From positions 1 to 57,783 of the IMG/VR virus record IMGVR_UViG_2554235495_000004: DNA of 57,783 nucleotides. One strand, 5' to 3'. Shown here in pieces: positions 23,568 through 42,693 of this stretch (position 1 is its first letter; each line of letters opens with the position of its first letter). The notes under the pieces were generated by a model. It was not told where the DNA came from, did not search any database, and saw only the letters and a program-made list of their open reading frames with translations. The DNA comes from a virus. The translations under genes and the position numbers were made by a program.

Positions 23568-23663
23568 ATGTCACACCTGATAGGGTTGCTGTTTTACGTC
23601 ACCTATATCCTCGTGGGGGCGGGTGTGTTGCTACTAATTGCTGAGTTGCCACGATTGATCTGA
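23568..23663 (+). CDS. 31-aa hydrophobic single-TM micropeptide (absent from the ORF track)
   Basis: MSHLIGLLFYVTYILVGAGVLLLIAELPRLI, preceded by GAGGG. Confidence 0.45.
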   Translation: MSHLIGLLFYVTYILVGAGVLLLIAELPRLI

Positions 23664-23772: not shown

Positions 23773-24981
23773 TCAGCGGATGTCGACGTAGTTGCTTTCG
23801 TCCACGTTCGGGAGGTCGATCTCAGTGTCCACGACCTTCGACCCAGGCCGATTTTTGATGAGCACGCCGTCGCGGGTGGGGGCGTCTCCGTGGATGCGGG
23901 AGTCCCGCACCGTCACCGACACGTCACCCGTCCGCCGTGCCCGGTCGTCGGGCGAGAAGGCGAGCACGCCACGGGCACGATAGTCCGTCCCGCGAAGTTC
24001 GATGTCGATGTCCTCGATCTCGACGGCCGCCGAACTCGACTGGACGCGGATCGCCGACCCCGAATCCGAACCGGGGAAAGTCTTGATCGAGCCACCCGTC
24101 ACGCGAGCGCCGTTGGCAGCCTTGAACCAGATGCCGCGGTGGTTGTCGAAGCCTGGCTTGGACTCGTCGACGTAGAGGGTGGGGTTCTCGATGATCGAGG
24201 GGCCGCCGACGCGGAGCTGGTCTCTATCGCTATTGTAGCCGACGTGATCGTAGACTTTTACGTACCCGTCATGGTTTTTCTTCCACGGCTCGCCGTAGAG
24301 ACCATTATTCGGAAACCCGCCGAACTCGCAGTGGTGTAGTTCAAGGACACCGTTGGACTTGGCGTTCAGAAACGCACCGATCGAGTCGTGGGTCGAATCG
24401 GTGGCAGTGTTCCGCGACGCTCCGCCGGGCTGGTTGACGTTTTCGAGGACGACCTTCTGCCCCCTGGGGATCTTACAGTAAATGCCACAGCCCCAGTCGG
24501 TCGTTGCGTCGCCCTCGCCACGGACGGTGACGTCGCGCATCCGGCCGCCGCGGTTGAACGAGAAGTTGACGCCCTTGCCATCCTCGCGGGCATCGATGCC
24601 GAAGCCACGCAGCTCGACGCCCTCGGCTTCGTCCTCGGTTTGGAGGAGGCGTCCCGCCCCGGCGAAGTGATCGCCGAGCGAGAGTTCCATGTCGTCCGAC
24701 GAGCGGGCAAAGACCGCGTTCGGGTCGGACATCTTCCACCCGCCGCGCACCTCGTCGTCATCGACGATGCAAAAGGCCACCTCCTTGCGGTCGTTGGAGA
24801 GGTCGGCGATCTCACTCGCCGCGACCTCCACGATTTCAAAACCACTCCTCTCGAAGTGCTTCTCGTTCGGGTCGGTCTGGCGCGGCGACCCCGAGACGCC
24901 GCCAGCGCCGCCGCTGTCCGACGTGCGCTCACCACCCAGCGCCGAGTGGGGGCCACCGATCAAGCGGTCGTTGATGGGCAT
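23773..24981 (-). CDS. Right-handed beta-helix (pectin-lyase-like) protein, family A
   Basis: Beta-helix periodicity; IGAFL..G.L....F..FPNNGLY shared with the 37157-39244 protein. Confidence 0.7.
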   Translation of the reverse strand: MPINDRLIGGPHSALGGERTSDSGGAGGVSGSPRQTDPNEKHFERSGFEIVEVAASEIADLSNDRKEVAFCIVDDDEVRGGWKMSDPNAVFARSSDDMELSLGDHFAGAGRLLQTEDEAEGVELRGFGIDAREDGKGVNFSFNRGGRMRDVTVRGEGDATTDWGCGIYCKIPRGQKVVLENVNQPGGASRNTATDSTHDSIGAFLNAKSNGVLELHHCEFGGFPNNGLYGEPWKKNHDGYVKVYDHVGYNSDRDQLRVGGPSIIENPTLYVDESKPGFDNHRGIWFKAANGARVTGGSIKTFPGSDSGSAIRVQSSSAAVEIEDIDIELRGTDYRARGVLAFSPDDRARRTGDVSVTVRDSRIHGDAPTRDGVLIKNRPGSKVVDTEIDLPNVDESNYVDIR

Positions 24982-24983
24982 CG

Positions 24984-25535
24984 TCAGAACTCCATCGGCG
25001 GGCTGAATACCTCCACGTCTTGCCACCCTCGCTCGGAGCCCTTGAACCGCGCTTTGGCGGGTTGATCGGCCACGACGCTCACCTGCGTGAACGGCCAGAT
25101 GCGGTAGGAGTCGGCGTTACCGCCCTTGACGTTGCCCGCCGCGAGCGTGTTCGACTGCGTGAGCACGTTGTCGTTCCACTCCGCGCCGCCGCCGCGGAGG
25201 ATCATGCCCGGTTCGGCGACCGAGAGCATGTAGTGACAGCCCTGCGATTTGATTTCGAACTCAGCGGCGTTGAGAAACGGCGGCACCACCCGCTCGGCAC
25301 CGCCGCCCATATTGAGGCGACAGTCGAGTTGCCAGGGCTGGTCGGCCGCGAAGTCCAGCGGGACGCCATCGAAGACGATTGTGTCCTTGCCAGAGCTGAC
25401 CTGTCCTTCGATCTCCGTGCCGTCGACCTCGTCGTGGTCGTTGAGTTGCGATGCCTCGGCGTCGATCTTGCCAGTGGCGCGGAATCGGTAGCTGTTCCAC
25501 TCGTCGGTTCGGGTGCTAATGGTGATTTTGGGCAT
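24984..25535 (-). CDS. Protein with two copies of a small beta domain
   Basis: SYRF..ND.D...G.V..G.D versus HYML..ND.V...G.V.GG.AD. Confidence 0.6.
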   Translation of the reverse strand: MPKITISTRTDEWNSYRFRATGKIDAEASQLNDHDEVDGTEIEGQVSSGKDTIVFDGVPLDFAADQPWQLDCRLNMGGGAERVVPPFLNAAEFEIKSQGCHYMLSVAEPGMILRGGGAEWNDNVLTQSNTLAAGNVKGGNADSYRIWPFTQVSVVADQPAKARFKGSERGWQDVEVFSPPMEF

Positions 25536-25574
25536 GATTGGATTCGTGTTTGGCCGTTGGTGCTGGCCGCCGTT

Positions 25575-25592
25575 CGGTAGTATTTAGTGCAA
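25575..25592. promoter_or_regulatory. Probable bidirectional TATA element
   Basis: TATTTA 25581-86 lies 25 nt before ATG 25612; TAAATA on the - strand faces ATG 25535; main AT-rich island in the 76-bp gap. Confidence 0.5.
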
Positions 25593-25611
25593 CACGCACC
25601 TGTTAGGAAAC

Positions 25612-26934
25612 ATGCAACGGCGGTCGGTTCTCGCGTCGATGGGGCTTGCGGCGGGATCGCTTCTCGGCGGCACCACGATGGCGCAGTCGAGCGGTAGTGC
25701 AGACGCAACCGCAACCCCCGATCGCGTCATCACGACGCTCGATGAGTTACAGTCGACATTCCGGCCCGATGGCACCCTCAAACCGGGAGATCGCGTCCGC
25801 ATCACCGACGAGAACGCCCCGTATCGTACGACGCAGTGGCTCGATATCGACCAGTCGGGCGTCACCGTCGTCTGTGATGGTGCCTTCCCACTCGTCAAGC
25901 CCGCCGGCGGGGCGAACGTTGGCGGCCTCCGCGTCGGCAAGCACCGCCGCGTCGAGGACGTGACGATCGATGGCTACTCCCACCACGGCAACCCCTCGGA
26001 ACAGTCCATGTCAGAGGGTGGGTTCGGCATCGGTTCGTTCGCCGTCGATAGCATCACGATCCGGAACTGTGACATCCGACGGACGACGCCGTATCACAAA
26101 CACAACGCCCGCAACTCGGGCGTCATCATCGGCCGCGATACCGACGCCTACGACGTTCTCAACAACGACTTCGACCACATCGGCGATCGAGCCATCAACG
26201 CTTGGGGGGAGTACGGGTACGTCGCGCACAACTTCTCAGAGAACGGCTTCGATCGGATGATCTCGGTCGAACCCGGCGAGGACATCGCCATCGTCAACAA
26301 CCGTTGTGCCGGCAACGGCCGCGGGTCTGTGATCGGCGTTGGCCGGAAGATCTCCGCGCCCAAGCGCATTCTCATCGCCGGTAACATCGCCACCGGAACC
26401 CACCGCCGGTTCATCTACTGTAATTCGACGGCTGAGTGGACGAATACGATGGTGAGGGGGAACATCGGCGACGGGTCGGATTCGACGCACCCTGGCATCG
26501 AAGTGCGAGCGCCCCACTCGACGGTGGCGGGCAACCACCTCGCCGGGTATGGCGGGGCTGGCGTGCTCGTGAACGCCCCGCGGACGTGGGTGCGCGGGAA
26601 TCGCGTCTGGGACTGTGGCGGACCGGGCGTCCAGTTCGACCCAATAGAGTCGCCGATGAGATACAAAGCGGCGGGCCTCAACGGGGCCTTCAAGTCTGTC
26701 GCGCAGAACAACCACCTCTGGCGGAACTGCCGTCAGCGCGGTGCTGCGGAACTCCAGACGGCGGCGAAGCGCACTCGGCTGCTGAACAACAACGTCATCG
26801 GCACTCGCAATGGGATCGCAGGCATTGTCGCCATTGGCCGCGGGCGATTCTCGACGGCGGCGTGGAACGTGACACCGCATGGTGCCGACGTGTTCGCTGA
26901 CGGTGGGCCGACGCGAACGCAAGCCAACCTCTGA
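25612..26934 (+). CDS. Tat-exported right-handed beta-helix protein, family B
   Basis: Signal MQRRSVLASMGLAAGSLLGGTTMA; colinear with the C-terminal domain of 28764-31874. Confidence 0.8.
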   Translation: MQRRSVLASMGLAAGSLLGGTTMAQSSGSADATATPDRVITTLDELQSTFRPDGTLKPGDRVRITDENAPYRTTQWLDIDQSGVTVVCDGAFPLVKPAGGANVGGLRVGKHRRVEDVTIDGYSHHGNPSEQSMSEGGFGIGSFAVDSITIRNCDIRRTTPYHKHNARNSGVIIGRDTDAYDVLNNDFDHIGDRAINAWGEYGYVAHNFSENGFDRMISVEPGEDIAIVNNRCAGNGRGSVIGVGRKISAPKRILIAGNIATGTHRRFIYCNSTAEWTNTMVRGNIGDGSDSTHPGIEVRAPHSTVAGNHLAGYGGAGVLVNAPRTWVRGNRVWDCGGPGVQFDPIESPMRYKAAGLNGAFKSVAQNNHLWRNCRQRGAAELQTAAKRTRLLNNNVIGTRNGIAGIVAIGRGRFSTAAWNVTPHGADVFADGGPTRTQANL

Positions 26935-26942
26935 GAGCTAAC

Positions 26943-28646
26943 TCAGATATTCCGCGCGAGAAGCTTTATCTCGCCGCCGTTGACTTCACCGCCTGACAGG
27001 AGTGTGACTATGTTGATGTCATCATATGCCTCTTCGAGATGGCCACGCACGCCCTCCTCGCGGCCGGAACCAACGAGATTGCCCTGATGCGACATCGTGA
27101 TCCAGTCGGCATCGCCGCCGGTCGAGGCACTCAGGTTGACGCGGCCGGCAACATGGTGAGAGTTCTCCGCGTAGGCGAGATGCCACGTCGTCTCGGAAAA
27201 CTCTCGGAGGCCCGATGTCTGCCGAGTGAGATTATAGTAGTTCTGCGTGCTGTTTAGATTTGCCCGCAGGGAGATGACTTGTGTGTTTGAGGTCGTCTCG
27301 ACACGGTAGAGCAAGCGATACTCGTTCGCGCCGACGCCACCAGTCACACGCTGGTCGGCTGGCGCTCCTGACGCTAGTGACGCCTCATCAACCACACGCC
27401 ACATGCCGGTATTCGCCTGCCATTGCGTCCCGCCAGAGCTGTTCGGTGTGAGAATGTCGCCCGCCGACGTGCCCGAGGAGTCCACGCCCTGAGCGGTTGT
27501 GGCCGCATCTGCCGATGCGACGGACAGAGTAGACTCGTCGGATTCATCGATGAACTGATTGTTAGCCTCCGAGCGCGGGTAGTACGCCGTATCGTGGTCG
27601 TGATCGAGCACCGCCGAGCGTCGCAGACCCGCCGCATACGTCGCGTTGTAGTCGTCGAACAGTATCGACGCATTGCCCGAGCCGACAGTACCACGCGAAG
27701 CCCACATATCGTTGTTGTCGGCAGTCTGGATGCGCACTTCAACGAAGGTCGCCTCGGCAGGCAGCGAAGCCGTATGCGTCAGCGACACCCACGTCGACCC
27801 CGAGAGACTCGTGGTGTTGCCGGCGGCGAAGTATTGCTCGGACGCTGTGGCCGAATACTGCGTCGTCGTGGCGAGCGAGAGCGGCTGAAGCGAACTGTCG
27901 TAACACCGCACGTCGATGAAGGCATCGTCCTCACCGGTGAACGTCTCACTATCACTGTGTGTCTGGCCGTCGTCGTATGCGGTGTAGTCGGCCGTCGGCC
28001 GGGCGTAGACAGACACCGAGAGATCGTGCCCGCCCGCACCCACCGCGTACTCCGTCGCAAGTGCCCACGTGCTGGATGAGATCGTACTACCGTCCGGGGC
28101 AGTCGTGTTGACGAAATCGCAGCCAAACGACTGCGTGGACGTGATTGTGTCGGGTGAGTCGGCGTAGAAGTAGCCACCCTGCGCGGCGGCCGACGCCGGC
28201 CCCGGCTCGAAGCGGAAGCCCTGCGGTGTGGCTGGGGCGTCCGAGCCAGGATCGCTGAGGGGGTGCACCTCGAAGTCCTCGCTGACGCGCTTGAGGTAGC
28301 GCGTGTCGAGGGTGCTGGTGTCGACATCGAGGTTGACACGCTTCGGGTCGCTGGCGTCCTCGGTGGCCGTAAGATACTCCTCGAAGGTGTAACTCTCGGT
28401 GTTTGCGACGGTGGTTGATTCGTCGATAATACTGTCGGGGAGATTTGAGGGGCCGCCGTGAGGACCACTCCATTGCCCGCCGATGTAGTCATAGATGCCG
28501 GCAGGGTCCGCGCCGCTGCCGTCGATCGCAACGGTGATGCCCTCTATACTTGGCGCGTCTGATAGCGCAGGATAGACTGGCGCGTAGAACTCTTCTTTCG
28601 GTCGAAGGACGATCGGCCGGCTTTCGTCAGGATCTTCAGATGGCAT
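26943..28646 (-). CDS. Tail fibre/adhesin with CBM-like jelly-roll segment
   Basis: Last gene of the fibre cluster; Thr/Ser-rich; segment DVRCYD...WVSLTHTASLPAEATFVEVRIQ. Confidence 0.6.
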   Translation of the reverse strand: MPSEDPDESRPIVLRPKEEFYAPVYPALSDAPSIEGITVAIDGSGADPAGIYDYIGGQWSGPHGGPSNLPDSIIDESTTVANTESYTFEEYLTATEDASDPKRVNLDVDTSTLDTRYLKRVSEDFEVHPLSDPGSDAPATPQGFRFEPGPASAAAQGGYFYADSPDTITSTQSFGCDFVNTTAPDGSTISSSTWALATEYAVGAGGHDLSVSVYARPTADYTAYDDGQTHSDSETFTGEDDAFIDVRCYDSSLQPLSLATTTQYSATASEQYFAAGNTTSLSGSTWVSLTHTASLPAEATFVEVRIQTADNNDMWASRGTVGSGNASILFDDYNATYAAGLRRSAVLDHDHDTAYYPRSEANNQFIDESDESTLSVASADAATTAQGVDSSGTSAGDILTPNSSGGTQWQANTGMWRVVDEASLASGAPADQRVTGGVGANEYRLLYRVETTSNTQVISLRANLNSTQNYYNLTRQTSGLREFSETTWHLAYAENSHHVAGRVNLSASTGGDADWITMSHQGNLVGSGREEGVRGHLEEAYDDINIVTLLSGGEVNGGEIKLLARNI

Positions 28647-28763
28647 TGGATGGATGTGAATGAGAATCGCGTCGGTGGTTCGTGGCGCTATTCGACGGCG
28701 ATCGCAGATTGATTCCAGAGAACGGCAGGACGGTTCGATTGTCAGATACGTCCCAACTATCGG

Positions 28764-31700
28764 TCAACGGATGATGTTGCCAACATCCTTGCTGTTCGTT
28801 CCGATTGTGCCTGTAAAATTCGTGAGAACGTTCCCGATGTAGGTCGTGTAGTCGCCAGCGCGTTTTATCCCCGCATTCGTCTGCCCTCGGATGTTGTTGA
28901 ATCCAACAATGCAGTACTGGGACTCCCCGGCGAAGCCAACCCCATGCTTTCCGGTTCCGTTGATGATATTCGATGCGATAGCCAGATTCGACATTCCCAG
29001 ATCAACCGTAATACCGTTTTTCCCGGCGTTTTTCACATGATTGCCTGTGACGGTCTGCCCCCCAGCAGCACATCCGAGACCATGCGCACTTGCCCCGACA
29101 ACATAATTTCCAGTTATCGAAGTATCAGAAGCGGCCGACCGTATGCCATCGGACCCTGGATCTTTGACGGCATTGCCAGATATGACCACTCCTGTTGCCC
29201 CCGATTCGATCGATATTCCCCGGCCGCCACATCTACTGAGTTGATTGTTCGATACCGTGAGGTTCTGGATCTCACCACCTCCGGTATTGGTGGCGATAGC
29301 GTGGCCAGTGCCGTCGGTGCTAACATTCCCGTCGATGGTGATGTTGCGTCTGACAACCCCCGACGCGCCGGGGCGGATTCTAACGAGGGTCCGATGCGTG
29401 TCATACCCGACATTCTCAGCGATAGAAATGTTCTCTTGGGGCGAGTTTGAACCGCCGCCAGAGAGGCCTATGAATGACCCTTCGGAGTTATTATAACAAA
29501 CATTACCCGTAACGATGGTGTTGGAACCACCGTAGCTATCGCCCGCCGCCCCCTCCTCCATATCGAGCGCGATTGACCTATCAAACCCGTTCGAGAGGTA
29601 GTTCCCGATGACTGAGACGTTCGTCGCCGCAGTCTGAATCCCACGGTCGCCCACGTCGTCGGTCCAGTTGTCGGCGATTGTGATACGGTCGCAATTGTGA
29701 GCGGCAGCAATGCCACTCCCGCCGTCGTTGTGGACGTGGTACGGGGAAGTTCGTGTTGCGAAGCACTGCTCAACCCGTGAGTCGGCGGCGTTGACGAGGA
29801 AAATCCCGTGAAGGTGGATTACGGTCTGGTCTTGGTTTGTGTCATTACCATGAACACCGACGCCACGGATTTCCACATCGCTCACGGCAGTCGAGTTTCC
29901 GACACGGATTCCGCCGACGTTGGCGTTATCCGCAACCTTGATGCACGGCTGTCCGTCTTCGGCAAACTGATTTTGTGCAATGACCGTCACGCCATCGACG
30001 TCGATGTCTAACCACTGTGAGGGACGATAGGGGGTTGCTGGCTGGGCGATATAGACAGTCTCGCCGTATGCGAGGTTGTTGAATGCCGATTCGAGTTCGG
30101 ACGTGGAACGGACAATAGTATCTGCAATCCCGGCGAGTGTGTCGGGGTTGATCGTCTCGCCACTGTGATCATGCCCTTCCGACGAGTACGCCGTTGAGTG
30201 TGCGCCATTGTCGTGGGTCTTCGGGTCCTGAGCGTCGGCGAGATCGCCCGATAGTCCCGTGACTGAGAGTTCGTTTGCACCGCCACTCTGGAGCGACGTG
30301 GGATCGAGTTGGGTGTCCGTATCGGTGGCCGAGACTTCGATGCTCACAGATCCATCACCGTCGTCCGTGACTGAGACGGTAGCGGCGTTCGCTTCAGTAA
30401 AGTTGAGGTCAGTGGCGTTGGCAAGCACCTGAGCGCCGTCTTCGGAGACGTTTACACGGGAGTCCGTTCCAGACCCACTCCCACCAACCTGAGTTTCTGT
30501 GCCACCACTTTGTTTTTTGTAGAGGATACCGTCGTCTCGGACGTAAAAGACAGTCTCGCCAGTATCTATCTCACTGTCGGGGACTTCTGAGGAGCGGTGG
30601 CCGATAAATAGCTCCCCCGCATGAACCGACGGGCTGTCGATCGGCGCGTCGATCGTGCCGTCCTCGTCGCTGTCGTAGGTGGGGTTGGTGTGGTCGTTCG
30701 GATTTGAGCCCGCGGGCAACGGGTCGGTCCGATCACCGCGTTCGATAACGTCCACGGTGACGGGGACATCGTTGCCACTGCCAGGGTTCACGCCCCATGA
30801 GACAGTGATCTCGACATCCCATGCACTCGCCGAGTCGTCCCAGATCTGCTCGAACTCCGTCGAGTAACCGTAGTCAGCCGCAAAACCTGGCTGTGAGGGG
30901 ACGCGAACCTCGACATCAAGGTTTGCGTCGCTAACGGGCGTCACTTCCTGTAGCGTGATTTTCAGAGCGGGATCAGTGCCGCCAGTCAGCGTTTCGTCGC
31001 TTGAGGTAACGACCTCTCCGAGCGTCTGGAGGTACTCCGAATAGGTGAACGGGTCGAAATTCAGATTCGATTCGGCGACGGTATCGTTGGCGTCGTTGAG
31101 ATACCGTGAGTCGTGATTGTGGCCAACCTCTGCGAGGTCGCGGCCGTGCAGCCCGTCCACCATATCCGCATCGCCCGTAATATTGACCGTCAGCTCGTCC
31201 TCGTCGTTGATCGTTGCAACGGTTTGGAGTGCGTCCCAGTAATCGTGACTCGCACCGACGCCCGCCGTCCGCGAGCCGTGATCCGCGTCGTCGTTGATGA
31301 CGCCCGTAATCTCGCTGTCCGTCCGCACGTCGGCGAGATCGGCGAGTGCCTGATCGTGCGTGACGCCAGCCCCATCGATGATGCTATCGGTCGTGATACC
31401 CGCCGCCACCAACTCGCGCACCCGGAGGTCGGGCGACACGCGCCGGTCGCGGAAGATGTCGTTATCGTCGATCGCCGTCGTGTTCGCGCCAACCCACACC
31501 TCGTGGAGTGGGATGACATCGTTCCGGCTGGCGAGGTCGGGCGGTGCGGGCCGGTTGGCATCGCCACGGATCGCATCCGGCGGGTCCGGTGGCTCGGCCG
31601 TGCCTGCTTCGACGGTGAGCGCGCCCGTATCCTTCAGGCAGATGAGCACCTTCCGTGGCTCATCCGCGACGTACTCTTGCAGGTTGACGTTCTTCGCGTC

Positions 31701-31874
31701 GGCCGAGGCTTTCGACCCCGCGAAGAACCCATCCACCTGCGTGATCGTGACTTCATACCCGCCGGCCGCCTGCGCTTCGCCACCCGAGATAACGCCGTAG
31801 CCCGCAAGCCGGAGATCGATGAGATTCGGGTCGAGTGCGTTCGCGGCAGTCTGGTCGAGATAGTCGTCGCCCAT
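28764..31874 (-). CDS. Tail fibre/tailspike with C-terminal beta-helix (putative depolymerase)
   Basis: 1036 aa; fibre linker repeats followed by many beta-helix coils (GN..NN repeats). Confidence 0.85.
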   Translation of the reverse strand: MGDDYLDQTAANALDPNLIDLRLAGYGVISGGEAQAAGGYEVTITQVDGFFAGSKASADAKNVNLQEYVADEPRKVLICLKDTGALTVEAGTAEPPDPPDAIRGDANRPAPPDLASRNDVIPLHEVWVGANTTAIDDNDIFRDRRVSPDLRVRELVAAGITTDSIIDGAGVTHDQALADLADVRTDSEITGVINDDADHGSRTAGVGASHDYWDALQTVATINDEDELTVNITGDADMVDGLHGRDLAEVGHNHDSRYLNDANDTVAESNLNFDPFTYSEYLQTLGEVVTSSDETLTGGTDPALKITLQEVTPVSDANLDVEVRVPSQPGFAADYGYSTEFEQIWDDSASAWDVEITVSWGVNPGSGNDVPVTVDVIERGDRTDPLPAGSNPNDHTNPTYDSDEDGTIDAPIDSPSVHAGELFIGHRSSEVPDSEIDTGETVFYVRDDGILYKKQSGGTETQVGGSGSGTDSRVNVSEDGAQVLANATDLNFTEANAATVSVTDDGDGSVSIEVSATDTDTQLDPTSLQSGGANELSVTGLSGDLADAQDPKTHDNGAHSTAYSSEGHDHSGETINPDTLAGIADTIVRSTSELESAFNNLAYGETVYIAQPATPYRPSQWLDIDVDGVTVIAQNQFAEDGQPCIKVADNANVGGIRVGNSTAVSDVEIRGVGVHGNDTNQDQTVIHLHGIFLVNAADSRVEQCFATRTSPYHVHNDGGSGIAAAHNCDRITIADNWTDDVGDRGIQTAATNVSVIGNYLSNGFDRSIALDMEEGAAGDSYGGSNTIVTGNVCYNNSEGSFIGLSGGGSNSPQENISIAENVGYDTHRTLVRIRPGASGVVRRNITIDGNVSTDGTGHAIATNTGGGEIQNLTVSNNQLSRCGGRGISIESGATGVVISGNAVKDPGSDGIRSAASDTSITGNYVVGASAHGLGCAAGGQTVTGNHVKNAGKNGITVDLGMSNLAIASNIINGTGKHGVGFAGESQYCIVGFNNIRGQTNAGIKRAGDYTTYIGNVLTNFTGTIGTNSKDVGNIIR

Positions 31875-31877
31875 CGA

Positions 31878-32258: not shown

Positions 32259-32266
32259 AAATTCAG

Positions 32267-33871
32267 TCAGGAGAAGTTGGCGAGCGTCGATTCTTGATCG
32301 CCGTCGAACGCGAAGAACCGGCCCGTTTGCATATTTATCGTGAACCCGATCGTCTGTGCTTTGTTCTGGATCGAGACCCGGCCCTCTTGGTTCACGATCT
32401 CGATCTCGTTGCCGCGCGGCGTCCCGCTCGACGAATCGTTCATGACGAGATTCGGCCGCGGTCCTTCAAGGTGGACGTTGTGCCCGTCCGTGCCGAAGCC
32501 CGGAACGTCGGACTGGATCGGGCCTTCCGGAGCGTCAACGCCAGCGGTGATCGTATAGGCTCCCGAGATATGGCCGACATGCCCGAGACCGTTGCGGTGC
32601 ATGGTGACATCATCGCGGATATCGATCGTATCGCCCGCGGCCTGGAGCCCACCAACGCCCGTGAACGGATTGCCCTCCATATCGAGCGGGCCAGTCATGG
32701 AGTCGCCCTTCGCATTGACCATGTTCTGGTTGGTCCATGTCTGCGATGCGAGGCGGCCCTCCTCGCTGAATACGTGCCCTTCGTCGGCGTGAACGTTCCC
32801 ACCGACCTCGACACTCAAGAGAGTCTGCGTCTCGGCGAGGTCGGTCCGGGCGATGGCGAGTGGGCGACCCATGTCGGCCCGCGAGCGCCACTCGTAGGTC
32901 TGGCCGTTATCCTCGTTGTTGTCGACGACGACGGTCTTCCTGCCGTTCGGCACGCTTCGGAGGTCAAGCAGTTTGTCGGCCGCCGCGTTCGGCGTGAGCT
33001 TGCTGATGTTATCGATGCCGTAGCCATTCCAATTGGCGTCGGCATCCATCCGGTCTCGTGTGTCAGTGCGAAGCAGATTCGGGCCAGGGATGCCACCCAC
33101 CGCGTCGGCGTTGTCGGCCGCAGCGGCGTGGTCGGCCTCCGCAACGGCCCCCGAGACATTGCTGCCGGCCACCGACCCCGCCTCGCCCGACACACTCACA
33201 TCGAGTGAGGTCTCGGCGTTGACGGCCGCGACTGCCTCGGCCGGCTGGAGATAGTCGTGTGGCGCGTCCGACCCGTGGCTGGCGTTCTGATTGACAGCCG
33301 TGTTGATCTCGTCGTCCGTTCGGATGTCCGCCGCGCCGGCGAGTTCGCCCGTGTGGACTCTTCCGGACGGGTCCTCGAACTGGTCCTGAACGGTGAGATT
33401 GCTAAACTCGCCCGAAGGGTACTGGTTGCGTGGTTCGGCGGTGCCGGCCTGTGGGTCGATCCGGGAAATCTCCACCGCGTCGTCAGCCGACGACCCGCCA
33501 GTCGTGACCTCGATCAATGGGTCGTCGTTGATCTCGTAATTCAGGTCGGCATAGACGTGGTTAGTCTCGGTCGTACTAGCGAGTGCGACCCCCGAGCGAG
33601 CGTCGTAATGGCTGGCGACGAGGGCGTTGTGGACGGTCTGGCTGTGAGAGGTTCCGTCATCGGCTTGCCACTCAGCTAGAGCTGTGTCAAGTATAGCGTA
33701 GACTTTTCCCTCAGTCAAATCGAAAGTACCGGCGCTAGCGTCAATGCTTGTCTCTGGGACTTTGAGGCCGAAGTCGACGTACTCGTCGATCGGCGCTGCC
33801 GCTGCCAGTACAGCAACATGTTCGGGGGCGTATAGGTCATCCCCTGATTGCAGGACGGTATAATCAACCAT
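32267..33871 (-). CDS. Tail fibre protein
   Basis: Follows the baseplate genes; shares the HT..LA..AD.RTD.EI..HGS..HDY linker with 28764-31874. Confidence 0.8.
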   Translation of the reverse strand: MVDYTVLQSGDDLYAPEHVAVLAAAAPIDEYVDFGLKVPETSIDASAGTFDLTEGKVYAILDTALAEWQADDGTSHSQTVHNALVASHYDARSGVALASTTETNHVYADLNYEINDDPLIEVTTGGSSADDAVEISRIDPQAGTAEPRNQYPSGEFSNLTVQDQFEDPSGRVHTGELAGAADIRTDDEINTAVNQNASHGSDAPHDYLQPAEAVAAVNAETSLDVSVSGEAGSVAGSNVSGAVAEADHAAAADNADAVGGIPGPNLLRTDTRDRMDADANWNGYGIDNISKLTPNAAADKLLDLRSVPNGRKTVVVDNNEDNGQTYEWRSRADMGRPLAIARTDLAETQTLLSVEVGGNVHADEGHVFSEEGRLASQTWTNQNMVNAKGDSMTGPLDMEGNPFTGVGGLQAAGDTIDIRDDVTMHRNGLGHVGHISGAYTITAGVDAPEGPIQSDVPGFGTDGHNVHLEGPRPNLVMNDSSSGTPRGNEIEIVNQEGRVSIQNKAQTIGFTINMQTGRFFAFDGDQESTLANFS

Positions 33872-33892
33872 TGAGAACTTGTGTTTCTCGTG

Positions 33893-33903
33893 TCATTTTA
33901 TAT
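33893..33903 (-). promoter_or_regulatory. TATA box for a leaderless tail-fibre transcript
   Basis: TATAAAA on the - strand, 24 nt before ATG 33871. Confidence 0.5.
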
Positions 33904-34050
33904 GATCAGTCTTGATAGTCTCTGTCCGCCGTGGATTACTTGAATTGGCCCCAAAATCGGCGCAACATCCTCGCCCGCCGTTCGCGGCGGGCCTTCCGCA
34001 CAGTGGAAGTCCGGCCGGCCCGGAGGGGTTTCAGCCCCACTCCGCGAGCG

Positions 34051-34422
34051 TCACACTGGGCCGAGAATCGGCATCGTACTCGTGACACTCTCACCAGCAC
34101 CCGGCTCCTTCACGCCGAACACATCCCGCGAGTAGAGTTGGCTCTCAGAGCCGATGATGAGTGCCGCCTCAGTAATCTGTGTTCCGGCAGGCACCTCGTC
34201 ACCCCCCGTCACGCTGAGTTTTGCCTCATACCGGCCGGGTGTGTCGGGATCGTCGACCCAGTTCAGCGGCGCGTCACCCGTCGTGGCGCGAAAGACCTCG
34301 TTTTCGAGTTGGGTATCGGAGGCTGTCGGGGCCGTCGTGCCGGTCCCGATCGCCATCACATTGACATACCCGCCCACGAGGTGGTCCGATACTGCTTCTA
34401 AACCTGCGTCAGTTTCAACCAT
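34051..34422 (-). CDS. Tail collar/fibre attachment protein
   Basis: MAIGTGTTAPTASDTQLENEVFR motif typical of tail-collar proteins. Confidence 0.75.
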   Translation of the reverse strand: MVETDAGLEAVSDHLVGGYVNVMAIGTGTTAPTASDTQLENEVFRATTGDAPLNWVDDPDTPGRYEAKLSVTGGDEVPAGTQITEAALIIGSESQLYSRDVFGVKEPGAGESVTSTMPILGPV

Positions 34423-34449
34423 AGGAGAAGTCTGAAGGAGTGTTGATCG

Positions 34450-35082
34450 TCAGTCGTCAGAGAAGCCCGCGCCGTAGCCCGTCGTATCGGTCGTCACGAC
34501 ATCGACATCGCCCGTCCGGATGCCGAGGCGCGTCGGTGCCGTCTCGAACTCGAAACTCGTCGCCGACGCCTCGCCGGTTCGGATGCCGAGTCGTGCCGAG
34601 TCGAGTACGTACTCGATCGGGCCGGTGAGTTGTACTGTCGATGGATCGGCCAGTTCCGCGAGTTCATGCACCAACGATACTTCGTGATCGCCCCACTCGT
34701 GGACCGTCAGCGAGTATTCGTTACTCGTGAAGTTCTCGCGCACGTCCACCGTGTCGGGTTCGGCGACGAGGCCGCCCGAGACGGCGACTTTGATGTCTTG
34801 GCTCGTCCCGCGGCCTGAGTAGGCGTTGACGAGAGCTTTGAGGTACTGGCGATACGCACCGTCGCCGCGGCCGAACCGCTCGCCGAGAACGCCGAAGTCC
34901 CACGCCAACTCATCGAGATCCTGGCCATCCGCCCGCTCGATTTGCTGACTCGCGATGACGTATTCGAGGTCGTCATCGAACTGGTCGAACAGCGTCTGGT
35001 GAGCGCGTGCCCAGCCCTGAACATTCGACGGGAGTTCGGGCAACGGCCGCGGGAGGTGATCCGCATAGTCAGTGGTGAACAC
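34450..35082 (-). CDS. Baseplate wedge protein (gpI-like)
   Basis: Follows the J-like gene; DGQDLD..A..FGV..R...D..YR..L motif. Confidence 0.75.
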   Translation of the reverse strand: MFTTDYADHLPRPLPELPSNVQGWARAHQTLFDQFDDDLEYVIASQQIERADGQDLDELAWDFGVLGERFGRGDGAYRQYLKALVNAYSGRGTSQDIKVAVSGGLVAEPDTVDVRENFTSNEYSLTVHEWGDHEVSLVHELAELADPSTVQLTGPIEYVLDSARLGIRTGEASATSFEFETAPTRLGIRTGDVDVVTTDTTGYGAGFSDD

Positions 35083-35085
35083 GGC

Positions 35086-36606
35086 CTACGATCCCCCACT
35101 CTCGACAGTGACGGTGATATTGCCGGGGTCGGCCACTTCACGCTGTGCGATAACTACGTCATCCGCAACGGTGTAATCGACGGTGAACGTCGTACCGTTG
35201 TCGGGATTCGACCCGCCGATGGACCAATCGATCGTGTCAATCGCGCCGTCGCCCGTCGTGTCGGTCGTGGTGTAGTCCGTCCCCGCCACGAATGTAGTCT
35301 GTGAGCCGCCGGCCGTCCCCGTCACGTCGCCGACGTTCGCTGCCGCACTATCGAGTTGGTACTGCGCCGTCCCGCTGGTGTAGGTGTGCGGTTCGTCAGA
35401 TAGCGAGAGCGTGGCGTCAACGTCCGCAAGGTCCCCCGGGGCTGCATCCATCACCTCGTAGGTGATGCGGCCGTCAGCGACGTTCTCGCCGAGCGTGAGA
35501 CTCGCCAGATACTCGGCCAGCGTGTTCTCAATCGCCGTCGTGTCGAGGTCGGTGCCATCGAGCGTCAGATCGACATCCACGACCCGCCGGGTGGCGCGGA
35601 GGAGGCGGTGATAGACCGTCGACGGGAATACGTCATCGCGGTCGAAGAACGTCTCGAACTCGCTATCGGTCACGTCGGGCGCATTCACGAGCACGCGGCC
35701 GTAGGGCGCGCCGTTCGTGCCACTGATGTCGGGGTCGGTCTCGGGATCGTAGGTGTCGATCTCGCTACCGGAGACCGAGAGCGTGGGCGTGCCGTCGTAA
35801 TGCTGGATGATCTCTACGTCGCCGTCGTCGATCGAGGCGAACGCCGAGATGAACTGGCCTTCAATCCCGCCCGTCGTGCCGCCACCCGAGCGATTGACGA
35901 GTGCGTTGCGCGTCCGCTGGCGAAGCGACTCGTTGCCCTCCTCCCCCTCACCATCATACGTAGCGTTCGGGTTCGTGACGGTGAGAATGTCCGACGTATC
36001 CTGTTCCTGTTCGTCGGGGACGTATTCGATTATATTCGAGCCGACGTTGTACTCCGCCCCGACGGCCGCCTCGTTCTCCTCACGGTTCCACGCCGTGATG
36101 GGGAGCGTGACGGTGGTGCTCGCGCCCGTCGGCGACCCGTTATCGGTGATGCGATAGGCGAGATAGTCGCCTGCGGCATCCGGCGTTGTCCCGACGATAG
36201 TGCCTGCCTCGACGGTGGCGTCCGGGCTATCGACGGTGACGAGAATCTCGCCGATGGCCGGCGAGCCCGGATCGCGGACCACGCCGTTCTCGATCGCCTT
36301 CTGGTCGAGGTCGAAATCGACCATCAACGAGTTCAAGTATGGCAGGTCGATCCGGGCGATCTGCTCTTCGGTAAAGAGGGTGGAGAGTTTGTCCTCGGTG
36401 ACGGGGCCGCCGGCGAATCTGAGCCACCCGGAGAGCTGTGCGGCCAGCATCCCGTGCTGGATGTCGCTCAGGTACTCGGCCTCACCATCGAGAAGGATGT
36501 ACTCGGGCGAGTGCTGCGAGAAATTCGTGAGATCGGCTATCTCGCTGGACGTGAGACTAATCAGTCGTTTGCGGGTCGTGTCCGCAGTTTCGATTTGGAG
36601 CGGCAT
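35086..36606 (-). CDS. Baseplate J-like protein
   Basis: GA.YNV..N.I, NP....GEGEEGNESLRQR and GGT..GI motifs. Confidence 0.88.
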   Translation of the reverse strand: MPLQIETADTTRKRLISLTSSEIADLTNFSQHSPEYILLDGEAEYLSDIQHGMLAAQLSGWLRFAGGPVTEDKLSTLFTEEQIARIDLPYLNSLMVDFDLDQKAIENGVVRDPGSPAIGEILVTVDSPDATVEAGTIVGTTPDAAGDYLAYRITDNGSPTGASTTVTLPITAWNREENEAAVGAEYNVGSNIIEYVPDEQEQDTSDILTVTNPNATYDGEGEEGNESLRQRTRNALVNRSGGGTTGGIEGQFISAFASIDDGDVEIIQHYDGTPTLSVSGSEIDTYDPETDPDISGTNGAPYGRVLVNAPDVTDSEFETFFDRDDVFPSTVYHRLLRATRRVVDVDLTLDGTDLDTTAIENTLAEYLASLTLGENVADGRITYEVMDAAPGDLADVDATLSLSDEPHTYTSGTAQYQLDSAAANVGDVTGTAGGSQTTFVAGTDYTTTDTTGDGAIDTIDWSIGGSNPDNGTTFTVDYTVADDVVIAQREVADPGNITVTVESGGS

Positions 36607-36643
36607 AGGTAGAGATGGGGGTTGAGAGCGTCGGAGCCGAGTG

Positions 36644-37153
36644 TTAGCCCGTCGGCTGCACTGGAATCACCACGTCGTGATACTCGTCGTCGGCCGCAAG
36701 GATCTGCATTTCCGCGCCGATCGTGTCGACACCGCTGCGATAGACTTCGGGCGGTTCAGGGACTCGATAGACTCGTGGGTCGCGGGTGACGACGTTGCTG
36801 TACTGGTTGGCGAGATCGGCAAACGTCTCCGGCGTGGGCTGGCCGATCACGGGGTCAGTCTCGCGGGAGATAGCAAACGCGAGGTCTTGGCCAAGCATCT
36901 CCACGCCCGAGGTGGTGGCGAGCGACCCCTGTTCGTTCACGACGAGATCCCATGCCACCTGCCCGTCGTCGGTTTCGCTGGGTGCCCCCGCGAGTTTTAG
37001 CCCCGCCCCGAATGCCTCGCGTGGCGTGGGCCGGTCGGCCTCCTCGCGGCCACGCTGCTCGGCGAGCTGGGCCGCGCGTGAATCTTCCGGTTCGGGGGAT
37101 TCTTCGCCTTCGCCCCATCGAAACTCGCCATATCGCGTTTCGCCATAGACCAT
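36644..37153 (-). CDS. Baseplate gp25/gpW-like protein
   Basis: G.LAT.SG...L.QDL motif; position before J. Confidence 0.7.
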   Translation of the reverse strand: MVYGETRYGEFRWGEGEESPEPEDSRAAQLAEQRGREEADRPTPREAFGAGLKLAGAPSETDDGQVAWDLVVNEQGSLATTSGVEMLGQDLAFAISRETDPVIGQPTPETFADLANQYSNVVTRDPRVYRVPEPPEVYRSGVDTIGAEMQILAADDEYHDVVIPVQPTG

Positions 37154-37156
37154 AGA

Positions 37157-39244
37157 TTACGCCCGATTGATAGGACCGCTGTAGTCGGACCGCCCGCTCG
37201 GATAGTCAATAGAGACATCGGCAACGGCCATCTGCGGGCCGTTGTTGATGACGGCCGTCCCCGACGACGCACTGCCACTCAGCGCCGTGCTTTGGATCTG
37301 CTCACACCGGCCGTCGACGATAATGTCCGGTGCGCCGCCGACATTGCCCATGTGGACCTCGGTGTTCTTGATCGCGTGGAGAACGCCCGAACGCACGTCG
37401 ATCCCGCCACCACACTTGGCGACGTTTGCGAGTTCGACCGTACAGCCGGTGATCGTGACACCGCTGCCTTTGCCCTTGTCTTCGACGGCGAAGCCCTGCA
37501 CGCCGTGAGCGCCTGCATCGGCGTTCGTGAGTTCCGTGTTCTCGTAATCGAACGCCGCCGTGCAGTTCTCGAAGCGGCCGTGCGCGATCCGGCCGTTCGA
37601 CACGCCGTTATTCCGGAACGTCGTACCCGTGGCGACGACGGAACCGCTCGTGTTGGTGGCGTACAGGCCATTATTGGGGAATGAATCGAACACCGAGTCG
37701 ACGATATTGAGCGTACCCTCGTGGTCGTCAGCGAGGAACACGCCGATCGGACGGTCCCCCTCGTGATCGTTGGCCATCACGCCCGCGTGGACCGACCCGA
37801 CGTTTTTGATGCGATTCGCGCCGCCCGAGCTGGTGGCGGGCATCGATATCATCGGCCCGGACTTCGCGCCGAGCGAGGCGGACGGGTCGGGATTCGCCCG
37901 TCGGCCTGAGCCGAGCGTCTGGAAGTATTCGAGAAAGCCACGATCGCTGGTGTTGACGTTCAGCCGACCCCACGCGCCCGAGGCGGTCTGGTCCATGTCG
38001 ATCCCGCTCCACATGAAGCCAGAGCCACCGGAGACCGTCACCGCATAGTCGCGGTAGCCAGCCGGGATCGGAACGGAGGCGTCACCCGTGCCGCAAATGG
38101 CTACATCGGAAGCGTTGCCGATGTTGATCTGCCCATCCCACGAGAGTTCTCCCTCAACCACATAGAGCGTATTCGACGCGCCGCCGATATCGCCCGTTGA
38201 ACTCGCGGTGACGGTGTTCTGAATATCGAAGCCAGCCTGCGAGGCGCGTTCCTCGGGCGTGGCATCGGGATTCGTCGATGGTAGCGTCTCGGTCGGTCCC
38301 GTGCCACCACCTACCGTCACCTGCTTGTCGGGGTCGAACGTGTCGACGTAGGCTTTCGTATCGTGGGCGTCGGTATCGTAGTTTTTGATATGCCCGCCGG
38401 CAACGTAGATCGTGCCATCGACGACGCCCGACGCGCCGACGATCCGGGCGCGATTGCTCGGTATCTGTGGCATCTCCTCGTCCCACGAGTCCGTCTCAAC
38501 ATCGTACCGGAAGACGTTCGGCTTGAAATCGTCGTTCGTGCCGATGCTCCCGACGTGGCCGTAGGCGATGTAGACCTTCCCGTTGATGACGGTATCCGAG
38601 AGCGCCTGCCGGAACGCCATCGGCGCGTCGGCCATGCTCTCGGGTTGACCTTCGTTTGGCCCCGAGAGCGGGTAGCGCGTTGTGGTGGGGACGATGTTAC
38701 CCGACGAGACGTTGTGTCCGCCGAAGTGATAGAGGTAGTCCGTGCCGTCGACGTTCGCCATTGCGACTGACGACCACCGGACGGGCTGGGGGAGTGTCGC
38801 CCATTCGGACGATTCGACGCTGTTTGACGAAGGATCGAATCGCCAGATGCGATCGGTGTCGGTTTGAGCCTCCGCCCCCGTCGCCCCTCCTGCAATGTAG
38901 ATCAGTCCATCCGGCCCGAGCGCCCCGCGGACGGCGTAGACTGGCTCAGGACACGTCGCGCCCAGGGTACTCCACCCGCTACCGGGCGTGAACGTGTAGA
39001 TCGAGTCTTCGATATTCCCCGAGCCGAACACGTCCGTCTCAGCGCCGCCGAAAAGGTAGCACGTTCCGTTGGCAACGACGCCAGCCTGCCCCCACAACGC
39101 TTTCGGGAGGTCGGGGCCGCTCGACCACGAGTCATTCGCCGTATCGTAGGCATACGTGTCCGCCGTTGCGCGGTCGTAGTGACTGTCGAGATCGGTATCG
39201 TCGCGGATACCGCCGAACGAGTAGATTGTACCGTTGACGTTCAT
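37157..39244 (-). CDS. Six-bladed Kelch propeller fused to a family-A beta-helix
   Basis: Six Y.(F/A)GG...(Y/F)D..W-type repeats followed by a beta-helix with FPNNGLY; no signal peptide. Confidence 0.85.
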   Translation of the reverse strand: MNVNGTIYSFGGIRDDTDLDSHYDRATADTYAYDTANDSWSSGPDLPKALWGQAGVVANGTCYLFGGAETDVFGSGNIEDSIYTFTPGSGWSTLGATCPEPVYAVRGALGPDGLIYIAGGATGAEAQTDTDRIWRFDPSSNSVESSEWATLPQPVRWSSVAMANVDGTDYLYHFGGHNVSSGNIVPTTTRYPLSGPNEGQPESMADAPMAFRQALSDTVINGKVYIAYGHVGSIGTNDDFKPNVFRYDVETDSWDEEMPQIPSNRARIVGASGVVDGTIYVAGGHIKNYDTDAHDTKAYVDTFDPDKQVTVGGGTGPTETLPSTNPDATPEERASQAGFDIQNTVTASSTGDIGGASNTLYVVEGELSWDGQINIGNASDVAICGTGDASVPIPAGYRDYAVTVSGGSGFMWSGIDMDQTASGAWGRLNVNTSDRGFLEYFQTLGSGRRANPDPSASLGAKSGPMISMPATSSGGANRIKNVGSVHAGVMANDHEGDRPIGVFLADDHEGTLNIVDSVFDSFPNNGLYATNTSGSVVATGTTFRNNGVSNGRIAHGRFENCTAAFDYENTELTNADAGAHGVQGFAVEDKGKGSGVTITGCTVELANVAKCGGGIDVRSGVLHAIKNTEVHMGNVGGAPDIIVDGRCEQIQSTALSGSASSGTAVINNGPQMAVADVSIDYPSGRSDYSGPINRA

Positions 39245-42679: not shown

Positions 42680-42693
42680 GCTTGGACCCAACC

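What the first reader, a model, noticed from the sequence alone, without database searches (positions are those of the whole stretch)
23773..39244. Separate cassette encodes free copies of both virion beta-helix domains: candidate receptor-destroying or exclusion system
Seen: two virion-module proteins carry unrelated beta-helix domains, family A in the Kelch protein (37157-39244) and family B in the tail fibre (28764-31874). A three-gene cassette (23773-26934), cut off from the late operon by strand inversion and with its own divergent promoter, holds one stand-alone paralogue of each. A alignment: IGVFL..GTLNIVDSVFDSFPNNGLY vs IGAFL..GVLELHHCEFGGFPNNGLY. B alignment: PYRPSQWLDID..RTSPYHVHN..GDRGI..NGFDR vs PYRTTQWLDID..RTTPYHKHN..GDRAI..NGFDR. 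Established: right-handed beta-helices act as polysaccharide depolymerases and tailspikes. Inference: the provirus makes soluble twins of its own entry enzymes, either to strip or mask the surface glycan receptor (superinfection exclusion) or to release progeny. This would suit a host with a polysaccharide wall or capsule such as Halococcus, though the host is not shown by the sequence.
Basis: partly seen in the sequence, partly recalled or inferred. Interest (0 to 1): 0.85.

Follow-up and report, generated by a model that had tools for sequence, protein, structure and literature searches.

The report
Tail-spike gene pair plus inserted secreted enzyme
In a Halococcus provirus the supposed three-gene "exclusion cassette" is really two things: a conserved gene pair that normally ends the tail-fibre operon, and one inserted gene for an exported sugar-polymer enzyme that is only a distant relative of the fibre tip.

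Summary
Both domain similarities are real. B: c440 against the fibre tip is 34% identical over 336 aa. A: c417 against the Kelch C-domain shows only by profile, E 4e-14 and 21% identity.

The "cassette cut off by strand inversion" is not one unit. Only c440 (25612-26934, +) is inverted. c183 and c417 lie on the late-operon strand, 2 nt apart. In five related viral contigs the same pair (a small protein, then an A-type beta-helix) directly follows the tail-fibre genes on the same strand. c183 is made of an unannotated accessory domain. That domain also forms the C-terminal repeats of the host's own Tat-secreted A-type beta-helix proteins, and of subtilases and a GH26 enzyme.

c440 is an inserted cargo gene. 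It has a TATA box 28 nt before its ATG and a twin-arginine signal. Its slot holds a glycosyltransferase in one relative and nothing in two others.

c440 is not a twin of the fibre tip. An AU test rejects them as sisters (p 1e-6), and its nearest relative (47%) is chromosomal.

The window matches the coordinates of a published predicted provirus of Halococcus saccharolyticus DSM 5350.

The secreted receptor-modifying idea survives only for c440, and it is untested.

The parts
23773..24981 (-). c417: stand-alone A-type right-handed beta-helix protein, 402 aa from the ATG at 24981 (the ORF stays open up to a GTG at 25026). No signal peptide. Last gene of the minus-strand late block.
   Evidence: The called form is 402 aa. 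The AF2 model has pLDDT 78 and is a beta-helix from about residue 46, with residues 1-45 disordered. Foldseek matches PfbA, AlgE4/6 and tailspikes. Seven homologues at 45-81% identity were found, all from metagenomes.
24984..25535 (-). c183: small partner protein built from an unannotated accessory domain, probably two copies. Its TGA stop lies 2 nt before the c417 ATG, with GGAG about 8 nt upstream of that ATG.
   Evidence: Junction read. The family HMM hits C-terminal tandem repeats of host Tat-secreted beta-helix ORFs (L007 E 6e-29). 383 library representatives match; scans of ten of the large proteins showed the domain C-terminal to S8 subtilase, GH26 or beta-helix domains. No Pfam, PHROG, NCBIfam or PADLOC hit.
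25536..25611 (.). 76-bp divergent intergenic region. Its only A/T-only hexamer, TATTTA at 25581-25586, is centred 28 nt upstream of the c440 ATG, the haloarchaeal leaderless-promoter geometry. It is 48 nt upstream of the c183 ATG.
   Evidence: Sequence. Only 61 runs of six or more A/T occur in the 57.8 kb window. No comparable element lies at -28 of c183-like genes in relatives.
25612..26934 (+). c440: B-family beta-helix protein with an N-terminal twin-arginine signal (QRRSVLA, a hydrophobic stretch, then TMA/Q). The only gene I read on the + strand between 23.8 and 41 kb. An inserted cargo gene.
   Evidence: Pfam Beta_helix E 2e-9. AF2 pLDDT 85.5 with residues 1-30 unstructured. Foldseek matches AlgE4/6 epimerases, PL6 lyases and the HK620 tailspike. 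The family profile matches AlgE4 at E 7e-8. The same slot holds a GT4 gene in L008 and nothing in L037 and L039.
26943..28646 (-). p567: probable additional fibre or receptor-binding protein. Its conserved N-terminal 355 aa and variable C-terminus fit that pattern. Its stop converges on the c440 stop, 8 bp away.
   Evidence: 44% identity over residues 1-355 to the 659-aa protein that precedes the c183-like/A-type pair in L037. Atlas leads to viral fibre-like clusters are weak, score 0.84.
28764..31874 (-). fib1036: tail fibre. The N-terminal roughly 212 aa are shared with fibres of related viruses. The B-family beta-helix occupies residues 585-1036 (28764-30122).
   Evidence: GC3 falls from 0.81 in the N-terminal part to 0.62 in the B domain.
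37157..39244 (-). Kelch695: baseplate-module protein, a Kelch propeller (residues 1-~310) fused to an A'-type domain (residues ~320-695, 37157-38284).
   Evidence: Pfam Kelch families. The C-domain family comprises P0043-P0050. It is fused to GH26 in L027 and to another N-domain in L026, at the same position between the hub-like and the p169-like (gp25-position) genes. It stands alone in L028 and L037.

Best explanation
The region is the receptor-binding and glycan-processing arsenal of a myovirus-like provirus of Halococcus saccharolyticus. This host has a thick sulfated heteropolysaccharide wall in place of an S-layer. The "cassette" is composite.

(1) c183-c417 is a conserved, translationally coupled gene pair that ends the tail-fibre operon in this lineage of haloarchaeal viruses. 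c417 is an A-type beta-helix, either a glycan-binding protein or a depolymerase. c183 supplies, as a separate polypeptide, the accessory domains that cellular Tat-secreted enzymes of the host carry fused at their C-termini. I infer that the two proteins assemble in the cytoplasm into an auxiliary tail spike. The Kelch protein's C-domain is an old paralogue of c417 that sits in the baseplate module.

(2) c440 is a separately acquired cargo gene (a moron) inserted between p567 and c183. It would be transcribed from its own leaderless promoter and exported folded through the Tat pathway. I infer that it acts on the wall polysaccharide from outside the cell, most likely in the lysogen, changing or trimming the structure that incoming virions must bind.

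Shown: the homologies, folds, gene order, synteny, phylogenetic placement, signal motif and TATA geometry.

Inferred: virion association of c183-c417, binding between them, any enzymatic activity, the timing of expression, and any exclusion effect.
For: Host. The window coordinates G000:C2:95856-153638 equal those of the predicted provirus on AOMD01000002.1 in Hcc. saccharolyticus DSM 5350 (PMC13321033 Table 3). The wall composition, including uronic acids, comes from the same paper.

Virus type. Portal, Baseplate_J and baseplate/tail PHROG families are present.

Pair synteny. A c183-like gene of 174-185 aa is followed by an A-type protein of about 400 aa. The gap is 2 nt in L008, L009, L038 and L039 and 35 nt in L037. 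The pair is always co-directional with and downstream of the tail genes.
- L008/L026: Baseplate_J, then a 712-aa fibre, a 580-aa protein, GT4, then 177 and 393 aa.
- L039: Baseplate_J, then a 706-aa fibre, then 185 aa and a c417-like gene (51% identity).
- L037: a p567-like 659-aa protein, 91 aa, 175 aa, then an A'-type 397-aa protein.
- L009/L010 and L038 also carry the pair.
- A stand-alone A' protein is the last structural gene of a Halococcus sp. PRR34 provirus.

c183 domain. It occurs in host Tat-secreted beta-helix ORFs and widely elsewhere.

c440. It has a Tat motif, and many cellular family members carry Tat or lipobox signals. TATTTA lies at -28. The insertion slot varies among relatives. 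In the tree c440 falls in a 100%-supported clade with P0011, P0012 and P0013, apart from the fibre tip. The AU test rejects c440 and the fibre tip as sisters, p 1.3e-6. P0011 lies among housekeeping genes. GC3 is 0.80 for c440 and 0.62 for the fibre tip.

Folds..
Against: - There are no expression, secretion, virion-proteome or enzyme data for any of these proteins.
- c417 has no recognisable N-terminal virion-anchoring domain shared with the fibre or baseplate proteins.
- No isolated virus in the phage collection carries a c417, c183 or A' homologue, so virion association rests on gene position alone.
- With c440 inserted in antisense, c183-c417 must be transcribed either by read-through across c440 or from the shared TATA at -48. 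Neither is shown.
- Catalytic residues could not be aligned to a characterised enzyme. The AlgE4 match covers only the helix repeats, so these could be binding proteins and not enzymes.
- For family A, a single viral clade containing c417 and the Kelch C-domain is not rejected (AU p 0.29).
Confidence: 0.6

Rival explanations
1. One reading: the three genes are one separately regulated unit. It makes soluble twins of both virion beta-helix domains, which strip or mask the glycan receptor (superinfection exclusion) or release progeny.
For: Both homologies are real. c440 has an export signal and a promoter-like element. The single TATA in the divergent region could in principle fire both ways.
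Against: c183 and c417 have no signal peptide and lie on the late-operon strand. The pair is collinear with the tail genes in five related contigs that have no inverted gene. The B pair is rejected as sisters. No PADLOC family matches.
Confidence: 0.1
2. c183-c417 is the virus's exit enzyme, not a virion part. It would be a two-polypeptide wall lysin, with c183 as the binding subunit and c417 as the polysaccharide-cleaving subunit. It would be made in the cytoplasm late and reach the heteropolysaccharide wall when the membrane fails.
For: The pair always sits at the very end of the late structural operon, next to the fibre genes. In many bacterial siphoviruses the lysis cassettes occupy that place (my own knowledge). 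Neither protein has a signal peptide. c183 consists of the accessory domains carried by secreted host enzymes. c417 lacks a recognisable virion-anchor domain.
Against: No holin-like partner was identified. The related A' domain is fused into a baseplate-module protein, which argues for a structural use of this fold. The c183-like domain is widespread in haloarchaea, so it is not tied to the Halococcus wall.
Confidence: 0.17
3. c440 is an exported release or lysis enzyme made late, or simply a captured cellular wall-remodelling gene that benefits the host or is neutral. On this reading it is not a lysogenic-conversion or exclusion factor.
For: Its nearest relative is a chromosomal gene, and most family members are cellular Tat proteins or lipoproteins. 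Nothing shows when it is expressed.
Against: Antisense orientation, its own promoter-like element and a variable cargo slot form the usual pattern of prophage accessory genes expressed in lysogens. The slot carries a glycosyltransferase in a relative. Family B was not found in the 10 other genomes of the host's family that were sampled, so it is not a normal Halococcus wall gene.
Confidence: 0.3
4. c440 is the silent alternative tip of an invertible tail-fibre switch, of the phiCh1 Int1 or Mu Gin type.
For: A fibre-tip homologue lies in inverted orientation near the fibre gene.
Against: No inverted repeats beyond 14-21-nt chance matches. No recombinase lies between the two genes. c440 has its own start codon, signal peptide and promoter. 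The two are only 34% identical.
Confidence: 0.02

Closest known systems
Prophage surface-glycan conversion genes next to the tailspike gene (P22/BTP1 gtr, Sf6 oac, epsilon34; PMC4413052, PMC10883804, PMC2629481; the details are my own knowledge)
   Same: An accessory gene with its own expression signal sits beside the receptor-binding genes of a temperate virus. It is predicted to act on the very polymer the virion binds. A relative carries a glycosyltransferase in the same slot.
   Different: c440 is a Tat-exported beta-helix protein homologous to the fibre tip, not a membrane glycosyltransferase or acetyltransferase. The host is an archaeon with a heteropolysaccharide wall. Function and timing are untested.
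Bacteriophage tailspike depolymerases and multi-spike phages (P22, HK620, Det7, CBA120 TSP1-4)
   Same: Right-handed beta-helix fold. Several different spike or fibre genes are clustered at the distal end of the tail module. The fibre and p567 have conserved N-termini and variable distal parts.
   Different: There is no sequence membership in any bacterial tailspike family. c417 lacks a recognisable anchor domain and comes with a separate accessory-domain protein. Trimer state and activity are unknown.
HSTV-1 gp12 'tower' (Haloarcula sinaiiensis tailed virus 1)
   Same: It is the only isolated virus with a family B protein, 34% identical to c440 over 272 aa, E 1e-30. The record annotates it as a virion structure.
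   Different: It is encoded among head genes as a capsid decoration in a podovirus. It has no signal peptide and falls in a different clade of family B.
Mannuronan C5-epimerases AlgE4/AlgE6/AlgG and PL6 lyases (NosD/CASH-type beta-helices)
   Same: They are the best structural and profile matches for c440 and among the best for c417. They act on polyuronates, and the Halococcus wall contains uronic acids.
   Different: Identity is 12-16%. The profile match covers only the helix repeats, and the catalytic motif is not aligned. Membership is not established.
Two-gene endolysin PlyC (PlyCA catalytic plus PlyCB binding subunits) of streptococcal phage C1 (my own knowledge)
   Same: A binding module and a wall-active module are encoded as adjacent separate genes.
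   Different: There is no homology, no evidence of lysis function, and gene order and stoichiometry are unknown. It is an analogy for the rival reading only.

Membership tests
Right-handed parallel beta-helix (Pfam PF13229 clan) | Sequence match above the Pfam threshold | tested here: met
   c440 scores 37.6 bits and the fibre 47.1 bits against a cut-off of 25.9. The Kelch C-domain scores 18.3 bits, below the cut-off. c417 itself has no hit, but four of its seven homologues carry PF13229.
Right-handed parallel beta-helix (Pfam PF13229 clan) | Predicted fold is a single-stranded right-handed beta-helix | tested here: met
   AF2 models: c440 pLDDT 85.5 and c417 pLDDT 78.3, both made of regular short-strand coils. 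Foldseek top hits are all beta-helix enzymes, adhesins or tailspikes. The fibre tip and the Kelch C-domain were not folded.
Twin-arginine (Tat) exported protein | N-terminal RR motif, hydrophobic stretch and a cleavage-type site | tested here: met
   c440 starts with QRRSVLA, then SMGLAAGSLLGG, then TMA/Q. Residues 1-30 are unstructured in the model. Relatives carry RR plus a lipobox. No dedicated signal predictor was available. c417 and c183 have no such motif.
Prophage accessory gene (moron / lysogenic conversion) | Own promoter, and orientation or position independent of the flanking operon | tested here: met
   c440 lies opposite to the surrounding late-block genes. TATTTA is centred 28 nt upstream of its ATG, and it is the only A/T-only hexamer in the intergenic region.
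Prophage accessory gene (moron / lysogenic conversion) | Present or absent, or replaced, at the same locus among related viruses | tested here: met
   The slot holds GT4 in L008 and no cargo gene in L037 and L039.
Prophage accessory gene (moron / lysogenic conversion) | Expressed from the repressed prophage and changes the host phenotype | not testable with these tools
   No transcriptome or phenotype data are available.
Virion tailspike / depolymerase | N-terminal virion-attachment domain, trimer, presence in particles | tested here: inconclusive
   The fibre has an N-terminus shared with fibres of relatives. c417 has none that is recognisable. Its tail-module position is conserved.
Virion tailspike / depolymerase | Glycan-cleaving activity with identifiable catalytic residues | tested here: inconclusive
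   Invariant polar residues exist in both families. They could not be aligned to the catalytic site of a characterised enzyme.
Known anti-phage defence / exclusion systems (PADLOC) | Match to a catalogued defence protein model | tested here: not met
   No hit for c417, c183, c440 or p567.
Invertible tail-fibre switch (phiCh1 Int1, Mu Gin) | Inverted repeats flanking the segment, and an adjacent recombinase | tested here: not met
   Only 14-21-nt chance repeats. No recombinase gene was seen between the fibre gene and c440.

The most novel reading that the evidence does not exclude
The conserved pair "accessory-domain protein plus A-type beta-helix" at the end of the late operon is a two-subunit wall lysin. 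It would be the long-missing exit enzyme of archaeal tailed viruses. Here it would be aimed at the Halococcus heteropolysaccharide wall, with c440 as a Tat-exported helper or receptor-modifying enzyme.
Probability: 0.15. Interest if true: 0.8.

Novelty: new variant of a known kind. Interest (0 to 1): 0.5.

Why it matters
No virus of Halococcus has been isolated (PMC13321033), and nobody knows how a tailed virus crosses or leaves its thick polysaccharide wall. This provirus carries at least four beta-helix proteins of two families, plus a Kelch propeller. Its relatives add GH26 and glycosyltransferase genes. Together these give concrete candidates for entry, exit and surface-conversion enzymes.

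The work also defines two things that are absent from current family libraries:
- an accessory domain family with 383 cluster representatives;
- a conserved two-gene module of haloarchaeal viruses built from the same parts as host secreted enzymes.

A Tat-exported relative of a fibre tip, carried as prophage cargo, would be an unusual form of lysogenic conversion if it is confirmed.

Tried and rejected
- Invertible fibre switch: no meaningful inverted repeats.
- Recent intragenomic duplication of the fibre tip into c440: rejected by the tree, the AU test and base composition.
- Close c417 orthologues in cultured genomes: none in 400 sampled Halobacteria genomes, where only distant cellular beta-helix proteins turned up. 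None in IMG/VR or in the GTDB contig scans.
- Related proviruses, searched with the p210 profile: none in the GTDB contig scan or in the 20 other genomes of the host family.
- c417, c183 and the Kelch C-domain against isolated phages: no match.
- PHROGs, NCBIfam and PADLOC for c417, c183, c440 and p567: nothing.
- c183 internal repeat by profile halves: not significant, E 0.014.
- A conserved promoter upstream of c183-like genes in relatives: none.
- PHROG scans of neighbouring proteins in L035, L036, L008 and L028: uninformative.
- The sigma-70 promoter scanner was not used, because it does not apply to archaea.

Full report
**What is there**

The window is a myovirus-like provirus. It has a portal, Baseplate_J, baseplate wedge and tail proteins, and its only relative among isolated viruses is the distant HGTV-1. 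Its genome coordinates, G000:C2:95856-153638, are exactly those of a geNomad-predicted provirus of Halococcus saccharolyticus DSM 5350 on AOMD01000002.1, 57,783 bp, listed in Table 3 of PMC13321033. That paper does not analyse the tail genes. It states that no Halococcus virus has been isolated and that the wall is a sulfated heteropolysaccharide containing uronic acids.

The genes, in window coordinates:

| Gene | Coordinates | Strand |
|---|---|---|
| c417 | 23773-24981 (ORF open to 25026) | - |
| c183 | 24984-25535 | - |
| c440 | 25612-26934 | + |
| p567 | 26943-28646 | - |
| fib1036 | 28764-31874 | - |
| Baseplate_J | 35086-36606 | - |
| Kelch695 | 37157-39244 | - |

**Check of the observation**

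The quoted motifs are present.

Family B is robust. c440 residues 37-341 match fibre residues 585-912 at 34% identity, E 9e-37. These are the only two copies in the genome.

Family A is only a 29-residue BLAST match. A profile of the c417 family (8 sequences) aligned to a profile of the Kelch C-domain family (9 sequences) gives probability 98.2%, E 3.9e-14, over 331 collinear columns. This is a true but old relationship at 21% identity. A and B are essentially separate families.

AF2 models of c440 (pLDDT 85.5) and c417 (pLDDT 78.3) are right-handed beta-helices. Their best structural neighbours are mannuronan C5-epimerases, PL6 lyases, an adhesin and phage tailspikes. The B-family profile matches AlgE4 at E 7e-8, but only over the helix repeats.

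**The "cassette" is not a unit**

Only c440 is inverted. c183 and c417 are on the late-operon strand. The c183 TGA stop is followed after 2 nt by the c417 ATG, with GGAG about 8 nt upstream of that ATG.

Metagenomic relatives show the same pair at the end of tail modules, co-directional with the tail genes:
- L008/L026: hub-like gene, 613-aa A'-domain protein, 170 aa (gp25 position), Baseplate_J, 272, 131, 533, 102, 712-aa fibre, 580, GT4 glycosyltransferase, then 177 and 393 aa.
- L039: Baseplate_J, then a 706-aa fibre, then 185 aa and a c417-like gene at 51% identity.
- L037: a 659-aa protein 44% identical to the p567 N-terminus, then 91 aa, 175 aa, and a 397-aa protein of the Kelch-C (A') family.
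- L009/L010 and L038 also carry the pair.
- In a Halococcus sp. PRR34 provirus, a stand-alone A' protein is the last structural gene.

The stand-alone A-type protein with its small partner is therefore the canonical arrangement. The Kelch, GH26 and other fusions in the baseplate module are variants. No conserved promoter element precedes the pair in the relatives.

**What c183 is**

c183 has no hit in Pfam, PHROGs, NCBIfam or PADLOC. An HMM of the three c183-family sequences hits tandem repeats in the C-terminal halves of the host's own chromosomal ORFs. These ORFs carry a Tat signal followed by an A-type beta-helix (L007 E 6e-29, also L005, L006 and L004).

Against 1.8 billion cluster representatives the profile finds 383 proteins. 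Some are stand-alone proteins of about 175-195 aa. Many are large proteins in which the domain is repeated. In the sample I scanned, it lies C-terminal to an S8 subtilase, GH26 or beta-helix domain. This is the behaviour of an accessory binding or stabilising module of secreted enzymes.

The viral pair therefore carries, as two polypeptides, the same parts that the host fuses into one secreted protein. Binding between c183 and c417 is an inference.

**What c440 is**

c440 begins with a twin-arginine signal, and most cellular relatives have Tat or Tat-lipobox signals. The 76-bp region upstream holds a single A/T-only hexamer, TATTTA, centred 28 nt before the ATG. This is the geometry of haloarchaeal leaderless promoters. 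Such hexamers occur only 61 times in the window.

The insertion site, between p567 and c183, holds a GT4 glycosyltransferase in L008 and no cargo gene in L037 and L039. It therefore behaves as a cargo slot.

c440 is not a recent copy of the fibre tip:
- In the family tree it forms a 100%-supported clade with P0011 (47% identity), P0012 and P0013. The fibre tip groups elsewhere with P0038 (45% identity).
- Forcing c440 and the fibre tip together costs 123 log-likelihood units, AU p 1.3e-6.
- P0011 lies among housekeeping genes.
- Sixteen of 400 sampled Halobacteria genomes have a family B gene, with scores similar to that of the fibre tip. None of the 10 sampled genomes from the host's own family has one.
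- GC3 is 0.80 in c440 and 0.62 in the fibre's distal part, which looks horizontally acquired.

**Family A phylogeny**

The c417 family and the Kelch-C family are each strongly monophyletic. In the best tree they are separated by cellular groups. c417 sits with about 550-aa cellular proteins, and Kelch-C sits with the host's Tat-secreted 750-890-aa proteins, SH-aLRT 96. A single viral clade is not rejected, AU p 0.29, so the history of A is unresolved. Within this genome, a single-sequence search with the Kelch C-domain finds five chromosomal ORFs but not c417. The search with c417 likewise finds chromosomal ORFs but not Kelch695.

**Mechanism**

Most likely (confidence 0.6), the virus carries several glycan-directed proteins for a host with a thick polysaccharide wall. 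These are the Kelch-A' protein in the baseplate module, the B-tipped fibre, p567, and the c183-c417 pair as an auxiliary spike. c440 would be an exported cargo enzyme that acts on the wall of the lysogen.

The rivals are:
- c183-c417 as a two-subunit exit lysin (0.17);
- c440 as a late release enzyme or a neutral captured gene (0.3);
- an invertible fibre switch (0.02).

**Verdict**

The closest known pattern is prophage surface-conversion genes placed next to tailspike genes, together with multi-spike phages. This case is a new variant of that pattern in an archaeal host. It also contains a previously undescribed accessory domain and a conserved two-gene module.

Noticed in passing
window 41474-42691 (-): A 405-aa ORF with several weak helix-turn-helix and transposase-type Pfam hits (HTH_Tnp_Tc3_2, HTH_28, HTH_23) sits inside the tail module, between the putative tape-measure gene and the hub genes. 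Its GC is low, 0.57. It may be an inserted mobile element or a regulator.
   Followed up: no
window 28764-31874 (-): GC3 along the fibre gene falls from about 0.8 in the N-terminal anchor to 0.53-0.68 in the distal 600 codons. The whole distal part, including the B domain, therefore looks recently imported from a lower-GC source.
   Followed up: partly
window 33895-33903: An A/T-only run, ATTTTATAT, is centred about 28 nt upstream of the p534 ATG at 33871 on the minus strand. It may be an internal leaderless promoter within the late block.
   Followed up: no
window about 23568-23663 (+): A 31-codon ORF encodes a very hydrophobic peptide at the end of the plus-strand operon, converging on the end of c417. 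I read it by eye. It could be a small membrane protein and is worth checking as a holin-like candidate.
   Followed up: no
L027:3999-6839 and L026:1794-3635: In related viruses the protein at the Kelch695 position keeps the A' C-terminal domain but swaps the N-terminal domain. L027 has a GH26 glycoside hydrolase there, and L026 has an unassigned domain.
   Followed up: partly
L008:8162-9331: A GT4-family glycosyltransferase is encoded inside the tail-fibre module of a related virus, at the slot where this window has c440.
   Followed up: partly
P0054-P0201 (library hits); G000 C27, C30, C15 and C33: The c183-like domain is a sizeable family with no Pfam model. It has 383 cluster representatives. 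The host genome has a 1348-aa ORF on C27 with at least four copies. There is also a weak hit on C33 (46603-46818), which would fall inside another predicted provirus if C33 is AOMD01000033.
   Followed up: partly
window 37157-39244 (-), N-terminal part: The Kelch propeller of Kelch695 gives sub-threshold matches to the NanM/YjhT sialic-acid mutarotase families. This hints at a sugar-binding propeller.
   Followed up: no
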